A stretch of DNA of 64,000 nucleotides, taken from contig NC_133620.1 in NCBI RefSeq assembly GCF_048593235.1, positions 372,153,261 to 372,217,260 of the forward strand, written 5' to 3'. Of this stretch, positions 43,076-48,074 are shown piece by piece; position 1 is the first letter of the stretch; each line of letters opens with the position of its first letter. The notes beneath the pieces are model-generated. The model was given only the letters and a program-made list of their open reading frames with translations. It searched no databases and was not told the DNA's origin. Origin of the DNA: Sminthopsis crassicaudata (taxonomy: Eukaryota). The translations under genes and the position numbers were made by a program.

Positions 43076-45029
43076 GATTGAGAGACTGAGACAGAGAGAG
43101 GTAGATACACACACACAGAATAGGGCGGGACCACAAATTTGGATGGGATATAATTCACAATTTGGGTCTGGAATTTGGCAGATATCTAGAGAAGATAAAC
43201 ATTCAGTTTACCTGGAGCAGGTAACATTCAGGTTACCTGTTTGGAGAAGAGGAAAGAGATAAGGTTGAAAAATTAGGGACACATCATGGATTGAATACTA
43301 GTAAGTTAACAAAGAAGTTTGACTTTGACTCTGAAGGATGTAGTGAGCCACTGAAGGATTCTAAGCAATCGAGATATGGCTAGATTTATGCATAAGGAAT
43401 ATGATTCTGATGGTAGTGGGAAGAATGATCTAGTAGGAATTATCACCAAAATCCCAGAAGAGTGATAATGAGGACTTGCTCTTAGGCAGTGGCAGTAGGA
43501 ATACAGGAGGGGCTAAGAATACGAACATATAGTACTTACCATATGCTAGGCACTGTGCAATGCACTTCACAATTATTATCTCACTTGATCCTTGGGACAA
43601 CACTTTGAGGTAAGTGCTATAATTATCCCCATTTTACAAGTAAGGAAACAGAGACAGTGACTTTCCCAAGGTCCCAGAAGTTAATGAGTGTCTGAGACCA
43701 CATTTAAACTCTGGTCTTCCTGATCCAGTCACACATAGTGTGCTACCTAGCTGCTTCCAATGTGAGAGAAACTGGGGAATTAGAATGAGTAGGACTTGAT
43801 CAATTGGCTGTAAGAAATCAAGGAGATGCAACAGAGATAGCAAGATTTTAAACATGAATGGATCAGTGATGATATGTTCCTTGTCTGAGTCTTTTTAATG
43901 TATACCTGCAAACCATTTTTAAGAATTGATGATACTCAAAAATTTTCTTTACTCATCTGTTTTATAAGCCCCATTTTGGATTATCATTTTCCTCTATTTT
44001 AACCTATATCTGAAGAGTATCCTCTGCATTGTCATCTAGTTTTCATTTGATGACTTCCAGTTATTTGAAAATCTGAAGGCACCCCATTCTACTTTTGGTC
44101 AACTTTGTGAAGTACTTTTTTTCAATGTCTACAATATATGTTTCCCTTCTCCACTAGCTCAAGGTACTTTTTCCACTGTCAAGCAGTTTGGGAAATTCCT
44201 TCCCTATATCTTATGTGTAATGTTCTGTTGTCTCCAGAAACTGTCGATCTCTCTCTGGGAGGAGATCTGCTGTCTTAATTCAGTCTCTAAGCCAGACTCT
44301 TCTTCCTGTAGAGAGCTGTCCCAACTCTGACCTAGAGTAGACTACTCCTCCGGGCCCAATGTTGTCTTCTTTTATCCTCACAGAGATTGTAGTGAGAACT
44401 CAACTGGGCTTGTGAGAAAATACTTCAACCAATGAACTTGTTCCTTTTAAAGGGGCATGTGAGAACTCAGGGGCTTAAAGGCTTCTTTAACTTTCTTAAA
44501 CTTCTTTTAAACATGTAAACTCTACCTCAGAAGATCAAAGGTGTAAACTCTCTTCAAAGGCCCAAACCAAGGGTATGAATTCTGAGCCAGAGAACTGTCC
44601 AGACAACCTGAATTCTCACCTAACATCAGAGAACTGTCCAGACAACCTGAGTTCTCACCTTGCAATCCTAACATCTCCCTCTTTCTTTTGATTTAGAACA
44701 TAGGGTGGTCATGACCTTGAAACATAAATCCATCAATATGGGAGGTATTATACATAATTACATAGATTACATAAACACATAGTAACATAGTAACATAACA
44801 CATGCTAGAAGTATGTAACAAATAACATGATCAAATAATCATAAATTGAGAATTTATACATGTCCATAAGTCCATTGTCCATTAGTCTCATCTTGTGTTA
44901 GGAAATCCAATGATTCCTGCTGGTTTTAAAGTTCTTTAACAATCTTCTTATTAGCCATGCTCTTTCATTGTCAGATGTTTCTTAGATTTCCTTCTTTGTT
45001 TTGAGGTCTTTCTCTTTTTCTGTCTTTCT

Positions 45030-45175
45030 CCGATGGACAAGGAGAATACGATTCATTGGCACCCATCTGATTCCTTCTCCTTCTGAAAAAATACAAGCAA
45101 GCCTCTCCCCCAGACAGTTAACCTATCTAATTTCCTTCTATTTACCACTTTCTAAATCTCTTCTCATCATCTGGA
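45030..45175 (-). pseudogene. Integrase C-terminal domain remnant
   Basis: Frameshifted translation LDRLTVWGRG..ACI..SEGEGIRWVPMNRI carries the WGRG and WVP motifs of betaretroviral IN CTD. Confidence 0.75.
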
Positions 45176-45399
45176 AATTACACTGCAGTTGCTTGCACTG
45201 GACACAGCCCTGTTGGTTTAAAAGGCCTGTATTCTCCCCAAGTGTAATCCATTTTTGCAATCTGATTGCCTTTTGGCTGACTGATTAGGTAAACCCTTTC
45301 TTCCATGTGATAGCTTTTCAACTGATAAATCACATCAGAGTCATGACCTTCTAAAGGCTCTTTGGGTGTAACCTCAGTTGCAATTATGTCCCACCTATC

Positions 45400-46883
45400 C
45401 TTTGATTGATATCTTGGAGCTGAGCCCCACTTCTCATTTCCCTGGGTCAATCTGCATTCTGAGGCCCAGTGAAAGCCTTTGTGACATTTTGGACATGGAG
45501 TTTTAGGTCTTCTTTCACCCTGTCTTCTCACTTTATTTCCATATCTACACTGAGCTCTTAGATGTCCAATTTTTCCACATTGGAAACATCGACGAATTTA
45601 TCTAGAAGTCCTTTGCCAAGGAGGACCCTGTCTTTCCATGTTCATCATAGTCTGGGTGTAAAAAGCACTTGTTCCTACTGTAGCACAGCGTCTTATGATC
45701 TCCTCTAAAGAAGCATCTTTGTCTAATCCCCATATAATTCTTTTGCAAATCTCATTGGCATTTTCCTTAGCCAGATGTCTGGTCATTATTTCTGTAGCTG
45801 CATTTTCTCCAATAGTTCTTTTGACAGCAGTTTGCAGATGTCCCACAAAATCCGCAAAAGGTTCATTGGGACCTTGCTCTATTTTAGTGAAAGCTTCCCC
45901 CCAATCTTTCTGTCCAGGGAGGGAACCCCAAGCTTTTATTGCAGCCTTAGAAATTTGCTCATACACTGTCATGGTATAATTAATCTGTTCTGAATTCTCT
46001 CCATACTGACCTTCACCAGCTAATTGCTCAAAAGTGAATTGTGTGTTAACTCCTATTTCCAAATTGCATCTGACTTGGTTCTTACATAATTCATGAAATT
46101 CCGCAAGCCACAAGATTTTGTCCAGGTTCTAAACATGTCCTTGCTATGAATTTCCAATCATTCGGGGTTAGGACTTCATAAGACAAACCATCTAGTAACA
46201 TTTTAACATAAGCTGATGTAGCCCCATAAAGGGTACAACCTTTTTTCAAATCTTTAATTTTATTCAAATCTAAAGGTGTATATCTTCTCCTTTTTTGACC
46301 TACAGAGTCAATATCTTCAATCACAGATATGCATGTATAAAATCACTTACATCCTGTCCTTCTCTCTTAGCTTTAACCAATGCTTTTTCTAATCTTGTCA
46401 TAGGTTGCTTAACAGGCGATTCTGTTTGTATTTCTGCCTCTTCCCCTCCTCCTTCTTGCTCCACCCCTGAAGGGTTAATTGAGGAAGGAGATGGGAAATG
46501 CTCCTGTTGCTCAGAATTGTACTTAACGTCATTGTTATCTGATTCATCCTTTTCACCTAGTTTAGTTGATACCTCCCCATTTTGCTCCTTCTTTTCCTTT
46601 AGAAGTATAATTTTTAAAGCCATTTGGATTAAATTGTAGGTATGAAGTGTATCTTTGAAAATTAAGTTTGGTTTGGAATTGTAGTGTTCACCTAATTGCT
46701 CTCCTACTAATTTCCACTCATCTAGATCCAATTCTTTTTCCAGAGAAAAACAAGGACATATATGACCTACACAGTTTTAAAAAGTTCAGTAATCTCCTCC
46801 AAAATTATAATCAATCCTTGGCTTTTCATAACCTTGGTAATGCTCTCTAAACATTTTCCTTGAACAGAGGGCATTTGCCCCAT
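45400..46883 (-). pseudogene. gag: Retroviral gag (MA-CA-NC), disrupted by stops and frameshifts
   Basis: Start MGQMPSV (MG myristoylation-type). LDLDEWKLVGEQL (beta-type MA), LTPNDWKFIARTCLEPGQ (CA NTD), major homology region IEQGPNEPFADFVGHL, and zinc knuckles CFQCGKIGHLRAQC and CPKCHKGFHWASEC. Confidence 0.93.
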
Positions 46884-48074
46884 TTCACTGAAATTCTACT
46901 TTAACTCTTTAACAAAGTTTCCTTGTTACTCACGCTTCTGGGTCAGAGAGACTTTTCCACTGAGATCTGGATCAGAGACTTTTCCAGTGGAATCAGGATC
47001 TTGTTGGTCTGAGTGTCTCTGTTCGGGCGCCAAATTGTGAAAGTCTGGGCTAGTTCCTCTGAAGGGCTCAGAATAAGTCCTTGTCAGCATAAGCAAAAGT
47101 CCTTTCCCCACGTTGTGGGCACCAATTTGTAAAGGTCCTGTTGTCTCTCAATTGTAATCCTTCTCTGGGAGGAGGTTTCTTTCCTCTGTGAATCTTTTTC
47201 TCTGTACTCTTCTTCCCCTCCAAAAGTATGGGATTGCTGGACTTGCAAATCCACAGGACGTCTTCCCCTTGACCCAATTCAGAACTGACTCTCCAGACTC
47301 TAACTTCTTCTTTTATCCTCCCAGAGAATGGGCGTGGAATAATTCAGGGGCTTGTGGGAAAAATACTTCAACCAATGAACTTGCTCCTCTTAAACATGTA
47401 AACTCTTCCCCAGAAGTCCAAAGGGGTAAACTCCCCTTAAAGGCCGGAACCAAAGGTGTGGACTAAAGAATTGTTAAGATCAGTTTCTGGAGACAACAGA
47501 ACATTACACTTATGGATCCATGATCTTGAAAATCTCTGGAGTTGGCTTTTTAGTAAATACTTGGAACTGAAATATCTTCCACAGTATTACTTTGGAAAAC
47601 TTTTTCAATTATAGAATTATAATTGCCTAAAGGATGGCAACTGTGTTTTATAGATTTTTGTAATCCCTCCTTTTTTTGCACATGATAGGTGTACATTTTT
47701 TTTGTGGATTGTTGGAATGAATAAATTTGTAATTTCCACATCAAGCCAAATTGCTATTAATTTTGGTGTGTTCTTGATATTGGTAATTGCTTTTTTTTTC
47801 CTTTCTGTAATTTTTAAAATACCATATAAAACAAGCATTATAGAACAGAAAAGGATTGTATATGGAAAGGCAAATCTATATTATGTTGAATTTGCTTTAA
47901 AAATACAATTAATTCCACATTTAACATTCAAAGCTATCTTGCTAATTTATGACTCTTAACCTTTTTCTTCTTTTTTCCGCCTCCTCTTCCTCTTCCTTTC
48001 CCCCTATTCCTACCTTCCCAGTCCCTTTCTCTTCCTCATCTAAAGTGTGGGGGGGAAACTCTTTAAAACAAATT

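What the first reader, a model, noticed from the sequence alone, without database searches (positions are those of the whole stretch)
44216..47508. Provirus with the same U5 end at both termini: perfect 28-bp terminal inverted repeat, 6-bp TSD and non-matching LTRs
Seen: 44216-44243 (tgtaatgttctgttgtctccagaaactg) is the exact reverse complement of 47481-47508, and the match extends by atct after a 3-nt gap. Both ends are flanked by the identical 6-mer cttatg. The two LTRs are related but clearly different (458 vs 381 bp, large indels, different U5 ends). The 3' LTR starts tgttaggattgc, whereas the 5' LTR starts with the inverted copy of the 3' LTR's U5 end. Established: LTRs are identical at integration, att inverted repeats are normally short and imperfect, and betaretroviral integrases make 6-bp TSDs. 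Inference: the integrated DNA was a chimera carrying two U5-type att ends, with a DNA-transposon-like geometry. It could come from a pre-integration template switch or from a two-donor intasome. The inverted copy stops exactly at the TSD, which argues that it existed before integration rather than arising by later conversion.
Basis: partly seen in the sequence, partly recalled or inferred. Interest (0 to 1): 0.8.

Follow-up and report, generated by a model that had tools for sequence, protein, structure and literature searches.

The report
Retrovirus insertions with two identical ends
This retroviral remnant carries the same end sequence on both sides inside an exact 6-base target duplication, and about one in nine sampled relatives also has doubled ends, likely because reverse transcriptase jumped between half-made DNA strands and the viral integrase then likely inserted the product.

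Summary
Observation confirmed: exact 28-bp inverted U5 ends, exact 6-bp target duplication (TSD), and two LTRs of different family subtypes (78.6% alike) around a gag-only betaretrovirus-like element. The repeat is not native: the inverted U5 piece replaces the first 31 bases of U3, and that junction is unique in the genome. The geometry, however, recurs. In an unselected sample, 7 of 63 resolvable family insertions have two like ends (6 U3/U3, 1 U5/U5). Over all searches I found 30 U3/U3 and 4 U5/U5 loci with a TSD, each at its own site. U3/U3 junctions carry reverse-transcriptase marks: whole or partial copies of the tRNA-Lys primer, and joins at the end of the primer-binding site. Best reading: two same-sense DNA strands from different co-packaged genomes were joined by template switching, giving a DNA with two like att ends that integrase inserted normally (0.68). 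A two-donor intasome plus repair remains possible (0.17); this locus itself has no decisive RT mark. Ten paper searches and three look-ups in this scan found no description, but older virology papers could not be read.

The parts
44210..44215 (+). left copy of 6-bp target-site duplication
44216..44673 (-). 3' LTR, 458 bp; a canonical subtype (alternative U3 start, type-A U5)
   Evidence: relatives 90-94% identical; L205 and L211 are TSD-flanked solo LTRs of 470 bp with the same U3 and U5 types
44216..44243 (-). native U5 att end of the 3' LTR (left arm of the 28-bp inverted repeat)
   Evidence: 579 exact genome matches; 30 of 30 sampled are U5 ends
44674..44689 (-). polypurine tract
44690..45177 (-). 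3' internal region; the element has no pol or env and is collinear with other 3.1-3.2 kb gag-only copies
   Evidence: interior aligns end to end with L112 and L113 at 86-88%
45178..46776 (-). broken gag in four open pieces: matrix (46321-46776), capsid N-terminal (46091-46342), capsid (45598-46128), zinc knuckle (45178-45597)
   Evidence: Gag_p24 and Gag_p24_C above cut-off; Gag_p10 (E 1e-4) and zf-CCHC_5 (E 8e-5) below cut-off
47015..47032 (-). second primer-binding site (PBS2); the CA at 47036 just before it serves as an alternative U5 att end in relatives
   Evidence: 5 of 56 normal insertions end there with a TSD (L028, L103, L114, L119, L129)
47107..47124 (-). first primer-binding site (PBS1), tRNA-Lys(CTT) type
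   Evidence: (whole tRNA-Lys(CTT) complement follows the U5 end at this position in L080)
47128..47478 (-). 5' LTR from native position 32 on; a different canonical subtype (standard U3, type-B U5)
   Evidence: 93-94% to L034, L037, L049 over query 31-381
47479..47480 (-). 2-base junction between inverted U5 arm and U3; unique in the genome
47481..47508 (+). inverted 28-base copy of the type-A U5 end replacing the native first 31 bases of U3 (second U5 att end)
47509..47514 (+). right copy of 6-bp target-site duplication

Best explanation
The element is a gag-only betaretrovirus-like insertion with two U5 ends inside an exact 6-bp duplication, likely made when reverse transcriptase, nearly done with the minus strand, switched onto the start of a minus strand and copied its last 28 U5 bases, after which integrase likely inserted both U5 ends together. 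[quoted passage not shown] Each such element is a dead end, not a spreading TIR family.
For: Both ends are exact att ends at an exact 6-bp TSD, unlike host-repaired ends (PMC5041404 passages). Junction unique. Class: 23 places with inverted U3 starts 374-434 bp apart, control 0; 17 of 23 have a TSD within one mismatch, 2 more at an outer U3. Unselected sample: 6 U3/U3 and 1 U5/U5 among 63 resolved of 97 loci. RT marks: L080 is LTR, whole 76-base tRNA-Lys complement, then 21 bases of inverted U3, exact TSD; L146 holds a tRNA piece starting at tRNA position 38; L102 joins two LTR subtypes exactly at PBS+18. 44 places have an LTR end followed by tRNA beyond the PBS, control 0; 30 of 30 examined copy 62-76 bases. 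Three more U5/U5 loci with TSD: L091, L236 (25-base arm, close to the 28 here), L169. Unlike LTRs inside one TSD recur at L085 and are ascribed to intermolecular plus-strand transfer in HIV-1 (PMC9278108 passages).
Against: This locus has no RT-only mark of its own; its 2-base junction fits any end joining. The tRNA evidence comes from the U3/U3 class and is carried over by symmetry. L169 (two long arms of 1031+ and about 830 bases from two subtypes) is just what a two-donor event predicts. Some junctions hold non-viral inserts of 42-458 bases of unknown source, which host repair could also add. Unlike LTRs could arise after integration by gene conversion; not tested. 34 of 97 sampled loci stayed unresolved. 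The empty site and the left junction were not verified in reads.
Confidence: 0.68

Rival explanations
1. Two-donor intasome: integrase paired the U5 ends of two separate viral DNAs and inserted them 6 bp apart; host repair then trimmed and joined the two free ends.
For: Gives the same outer geometry and TSD. Arms often differ in subtype (L102, L169, L041). Intasomes assemble on identical oligonucleotide ends in vitro (U5-only substrates listed in PMC3790719 passages). Many junctions show 5-10 bases of overlap, which end joining also uses.
Against: Needs one donor trimmed to 28 bases while the other lost only 31. Does not explain tRNA copies and PBS+18 joins, unless the donors were themselves unfinished RT products. 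Short arms of 14-45 bases are common.
Confidence: 0.17
2. Two insertions at the very same 6-bp target, head to head, followed by deletion of the palindromic centre, leaving 28 bases of the inverted LTR.
For: L033 has this precursor form: inverted LTR and forward LTR with the same 6-mer three times. Such palindromes would be lost quickly, so few would be seen.
Against: Only 1 such 6-base head-to-head pair among 7,715 U3-start matches. Cannot give L091 or L236, whose main arms show further internal jumps or inserts.
Confidence: 0.07
3. After an ordinary integration, the U3 start was overwritten by the U5 end through gene conversion or a replication template switch using the weak native inverted repeat.
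For: The replacement is nearly length-matched (30 for 31 bases) and U3 start and inverted U5 end share 8 of 11 first bases.
Against: Homology is too short over 3.2 kb; the copy stops exactly at the TSD and does not take in the flank. Most same-end relatives lack the overwritten end altogether (L060, L086, L107), so they need a pre-integration origin anyway.
Confidence: 0.05
4. Assembly error in a high-copy repeat.
For: No listed contig spans the internal junction or the left junction with 31 bases on each side.
Against: A U5-type end abuts the right flank in two samples from two studies; 34 same-end loci with their own TSDs and junctions would all have to be errors.
Confidence: 0.03

Closest known systems
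HIV-1 proviruses with asymmetric LTRs (Joseph et al. 2022, PMC9278108; passages read)
   Same: LTRs unlike at integration (26 of 88 proviruses there), ascribed to plus-strand strong-stop DNA moving to the other genome copy.
   Different: There the asymmetry is deletion in one LTR; the passages seen report no swap of att ends. Here whole LTR subtypes differ and one att end is an inverted copy of the other.
Aberrant integrations with one host-joined end (Varadarajan et al. 2016, PMC5041404; passages read)
   Same: Viral sequence of either orientation can be appended to one end.
   Different: There one end is not made by integrase and the short duplication is lost; here both ends are exact att ends in an exact 6-bp TSD.
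Plus-strand read-through past m1A58 of the primer tRNA (Fukuda et al. 2021, PMC8599865; passages read)
   Same: RT copies tRNA beyond 18 bases when the stop fails.
   Different: That paper states read-through leaves plus-strand synthesis and integration incomplete; this family has 44 integrated read-through products, rescued by further jumps.
MEBrv 3 and other dasyurid betaretrovirus-like ERVs (Harding et al. 2024, PMC11334065; passages and section 10 read)
   Same: Very abundant class II ERV, LTRs in the 281-469 range, described as an env-less retrotransposing clade.
   Different: Clade membership and host not tested here. The main text has 0 hits for 'inverted', 'primer binding' and 'target site'; its supplement was not read.
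Strand-transfer errors in retroviral vectors (Pulsinelli and Temin 1991; seen only as a reference listing, content recalled) and autointegration inversion circles (recalled)
   Same: Rearranged viral DNA from mis-primed or mis-transferred strands.
   Different: Could not be read; they may already describe single cases of this geometry. Autointegration uses up both att ends, whereas here both join host DNA.
Copy-back defective genomes of RNA viruses and TIR DNA transposons or MITEs (recalled, analogies only)
   Same: One terminus copied inverted onto the other; TIR plus TSD look (L230 is a 108-bp example).
   Different: No transposase, no shared junction spreading from this locus; the ends are retroviral att sites.

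Membership tests
Betaretrovirus-like (class II) ERV | gag with p10 matrix, p24 capsid, CCHC knuckle | tested here: met
   p24 domains above cut-off, p10 and zf-CCHC_5 below cut-off
Betaretrovirus-like (class II) ERV | tRNA-Lys primer-binding site | tested here: met
Betaretrovirus-like (class II) ERV | 6-bp TSD and TG...CA ends | tested here: met
   6 bp for MMTV per PMC3790719 passage
Betaretrovirus-like (class II) ERV | RT phylogeny with betaretroviruses | not tested
   this element has no pol; no tree built from relatives
MEBrv 3 clade | RT clade, about 7.3 kb env-less structure, dasyurid host | not tested
   no reference sequence fetched; longest TSD-bounded copy seen was 6.0 kb (L173)
Canonical provirus | U3 att at one end, U5 att at the other | tested here: not met
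Canonical provirus | LTRs of one type | tested here: not met
   78.6% against 93.6-95.3% for four matched pairs
Host-repaired one-ended integration | one end without att CA or without the short TSD | tested here: not met
Native long att inverted repeat | most copies of the LTR start with the 28-mer | tested here: not met
TIR DNA transposon or MITE | TIR plus TSD | tested here: met
TIR DNA transposon or MITE | dispersed copies of the same element, or a transposase | tested here: not met
   junction found once; only gag domains inside
RT template-switch product | RT-only mark at the junction (tRNA copy, strong-stop end) | tested here: inconclusive
   absent at this locus; present in U3/U3 relatives L080, L102, L146, L164, L186, L194, L195
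Two-donor concerted integration | two separate DNA molecules held by one intasome | not testable with these tools
   final sequence is the same as for a pre-joined molecule

The most novel reading that the evidence does not exclude
This ERV family routinely runs a second, non-canonical replication route: its reverse transcriptase ignores the tRNA strong stop and fuses same-sense strands from different co-packaged genomes, and its integrase inserts the resulting U3/U3 or U5/U5 DNAs with full fidelity, at about a tenth of all insertions. The genome would then hold hundreds of TIR-plus-TSD elements made by a retrovirus, a fossil record of primer-tRNA under-modification in the germ line and in vivo proof that an intasome needs no U3-U5 pair.
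Probability: 0.5. Interest if true: 0.78.

Novelty: new variant of a known kind. Interest (0 to 1): 0.62.

Why it matters
Textbook integration joins one U3 and one U5 end of a DNA with identical LTRs, and read-through of the primer tRNA is said to abort it. Here a natural family shows same-end insertions with clean TSDs in 7 of 63 resolved copies and 44 integrated read-through products. With 7,715 U3-start matches in the genome this is a large ready data set to test whether intasomes accept two like ends in vivo, where RT stops and jumps on a natural primer tRNA, and how many genomes share one reverse-transcription complex. It also warns that LTR-divergence dating (2 of 8 TSD-bounded pairs are of unlike subtypes) and TIR-based transposon annotation can be misled by such elements.

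Tried and rejected
Native long att repeat: rejected. Propagating TIR family from this locus: rejected, junction found once. U5/U5 search at 301-361 bp with narrow motifs: 0 hits. One search hit L093, which has normal outer ends and an internal inversion: not counted. Of the 23 hits, L075 is a nested LTR (dropped), L076 has only a shifted 5-base match, L063 and L064 are 3' LTRs whose outer end was not found in 10 kb. L224-L229 are one U3/U3 element copied six times with its flanks and without a clean TSD: not counted. L235 has an inverted U3 piece beyond its U5 end and no TSD seen: not counted. L005 was dropped from the sample as a duplicate of L004. Six of the 30 tRNA read-through loci have no U3 start of this family upstream and may belong to other LTR families. 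Rfam found no known RNA in the foreign inserts of 6 loci, only the tRNA of L080; BLAST against held loci placed L107 and L169 inserts in family-associated sequence and left L071, L091, L236 unplaced. Read data could not bridge the internal or left junction; runs X7 and X8 held none of the words and are no evidence. Paper searches gave no account of same-end proviruses; five look-ups of four older papers failed as not held. PMC2857682, PMC11301382 and a sugar-beet preprint (passages) added nothing on the geometry. Look-ups in this scan's notes gave nothing relevant.
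Full report
Observation. The window lies in a 3.24-Gb genome of 8 contigs. The element runs on the minus strand from 47508 to 44216. Its first and last 28 bases are exact reverse complements and the same 6-mer flanks both ends. 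Inside are a 381-bp 5' LTR, two primer-binding sites, a gag broken into four open pieces with p10, p24 and zinc-knuckle matches, a polypurine tract and a 458-bp 3' LTR. The interior aligns end to end with two other 3.1-3.2 kb copies at 86-88%, so it belongs to a non-autonomous gag-only subfamily. The LTRs are 78.6% alike; each is a canonical subtype with 90-94% relatives elsewhere. Contigs from two samples in two studies join 25 bases of the arm to the right flank, one sample with two flank haplotypes; neither the inner nor the left junction was bridged.

The repeat is not native. The 28-mer has 579 exact matches; 30 of 30 examined are ordinary U5 ends. Relatives of the 5' LTR start with a 31-base U3 sequence that here is replaced by the 28-mer plus 2 bases. 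Only this locus matches bases 1-27 among 40 scored hits, and a junction pattern hits it alone.

The geometry recurs. While annotating 60 loci fetched for other reasons I found three elements with an inverted U3 start at both ends and a 6-bp TSD (L016, L060, L041). A genome search for inverted U3 starts 374-434 bp apart gave 23 places, control 0: 17 have a TSD within one mismatch, 2 more have it at an outer U3, 1 is a nested LTR, 3 stayed open. For a rate I took the first 100 places as 97 loci. By a fixed rule 62 resolved: 56 normal and 6 U3/U3. A second look at the 35 others turned up one U5/U5 element, L169, TSD with one mismatch. That gives 7 of 63 resolved, 34 unresolved. The sample was picked by a U5 motif, which should count against U3/U3 elements. 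Chance agreement of flank 6-mers is 35 of 3782. Over all searches 30 distinct U3/U3 loci carry a TSD (list); this is a tally, not a rate. The U3 start has 7,715 exact matches, so hundreds of such elements are likely.

U5/U5 is the rare mirror. The like-for-like search at 374-434 bp gave 1 hit, L236, with an exact TSD and a 25-base arm; a search at 301-361 bp gave none. L091 has an exact TSD and an arm that ends at the CA before the second primer-binding site, an end that 5 normal insertions also use. With L169 and this locus that makes 4. Motif strictness differs between the U3 and U5 searches, so the ratio is rough.

Marks of reverse transcriptase. L080 reads LTR, a whole 76-base tRNA-Lys(CTT) complement, 21 bases of inverted U3, inside an exact TSD. 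L146 carries a primer-tRNA piece that starts at position 38 when aligned to that tRNA; a modified base at 37 of tRNA-Lys3 is listed in PMC8599865 (passage), and that this piece is tRNA-Lys3 is recalled. L102 joins two LTR subtypes where one strand ends at exactly 18 bases of primer-binding site, pairing by 4 bases with the other. L164 joins the second site to an exact U5 end. Genome-wide, 44 places have an LTR end followed by tRNA beyond the binding site, control 0; 30 of 30 examined copy 62-76 bases, 12 the whole tRNA; 24 of 30 have this family's U3 start upstream, and 4 end in an inverted U3 with a TSD. DNA copies of the primer at this place can only come from the reverse-transcription complex, so these joins predate integration. 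Many other junctions show 5-10 bases of overlap or 0-2 added bases; some hold foreign inserts.

Mechanism. Shown: two exact att ends, exact TSD, unique junction, unlike LTR subtypes, a recurrent same-end class with tRNA and strong-stop joins. Inferred: two same-sense strands anneal or one jumps to the other's 5' end and copies to its tip. Two plus strands give U3/U3, two minus strands give U5/U5, and the duplex has two usable att ends. For this locus a nearly complete minus strand, already carrying a 5' LTR from a second genome, switched 31 bases short of the left end onto a U5 tip. Unlike LTRs inside one TSD recur at L085 (82.8%, same subtype order), while four pairs are matched at 93.6-95.3% and two are intermediate at 88.3 and 90.6%. 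Intermolecular plus-strand transfer is the route proposed for asymmetric HIV-1 LTRs (PMC9278108 passages).

Against. The locus has no RT-only mark. A two-donor intasome with repair gives the same final sequence, and L169 with two long arms fits it well. L033 shows a head-to-head pair with three copies of one 6-mer that could collapse to this form, but it is the only one in the genome. Later conversion is weak because homology is 8 of 11 bases and most relatives lack the end that would be overwritten. Host-joined ends described in PMC5041404 (passages) lack the short TSD seen here.

Comparison and novelty. It works like a strand-transfer error of reverse transcription followed by normal integration. 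It passes the gag, tRNA-Lys and 6-bp TSD tests for a betaretrovirus-like ERV; RT phylogeny and the MEBrv 3 clade of PMC11334065 (passages and section 10) were not tested. It fails the tests for a canonical provirus, a native long att repeat and a spreading TIR transposon. Ten searches found no account of same-end proviruses, but the library lacks most older virology; four older papers could not be read and may hold single cases. No supplements were read. This scan's notes held nothing relevant.

Verdict. Real feature; new variant of a known kind. The single locus is a dead-end insertion; its value is that it leads to a frequent, testable class. Interest 0.62.

Noticed in passing
window 47124-47015; L028, L103, L114, L119, L129: The family has two primer-binding sites about 90 bases apart, and the CA before the second is used as an alternative U5 att end with a TSD in 5 of 56 normal insertions. 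Several copies also have two polypurine tracts (L006, L009, L024).
   Followed up: partly
L174-L203 (44 places): LTR end followed by 62-76 bases of tRNA-Lys complement, then a jump to inverted U3, to a U5 end, to internal sequence, or straight to the TSD with no att CA (L199).
   Followed up: partly
L033 1121-1955 (G000:C2 near 465604913): Two different LTRs head to head with the same 6-mer on the left, between them and on the right; the only such case in the genome search. Unexplained.
   Followed up: partly
L230 401-508: A 108-bp element made only of inverted U3 starts inside an exact 6-bp TSD; looks like a MITE.
   Followed up: partly
L063, L073, L078; L066, L074, L077; L064, L065, L067, L070, L079, L084: Groups of U3/U3 elements at different sites share the same or nearly the same junction. 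Microhomology hot spots or limited propagation; not resolved.
   Followed up: no
L032 1047-1610, L042 1470-2037: An LTR variant with a type-B U5 followed by a type-A U5 and the same joint at two sites, so LTR-end rearrangements can spread.
   Followed up: no
L034/L035, L050, L008, L087: Three-LTR or tandem elements, with an extra PPT-LTR unit placed between the two primer-binding sites.
   Followed up: no
L071, L091, L102, L233, L236: Non-viral inserts of 33-458 bases at or near junctions; source not found among held loci or in Rfam.
   Followed up: partly
L015, L019, L026, L053, L075, L128: Family LTRs often sit inside or right beside other copies of the family.
   Followed up: no
L224-L229 (G000:C1 1.87-3.51 Mb): One U3/U3 element copied six times with its flanks, in both orientations: a segmental duplication cluster.
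   Followed up: partly
window 43847-44140: No contig depth in any of four runs although neighbouring flank is covered; may be a filter effect.
   Followed up: no
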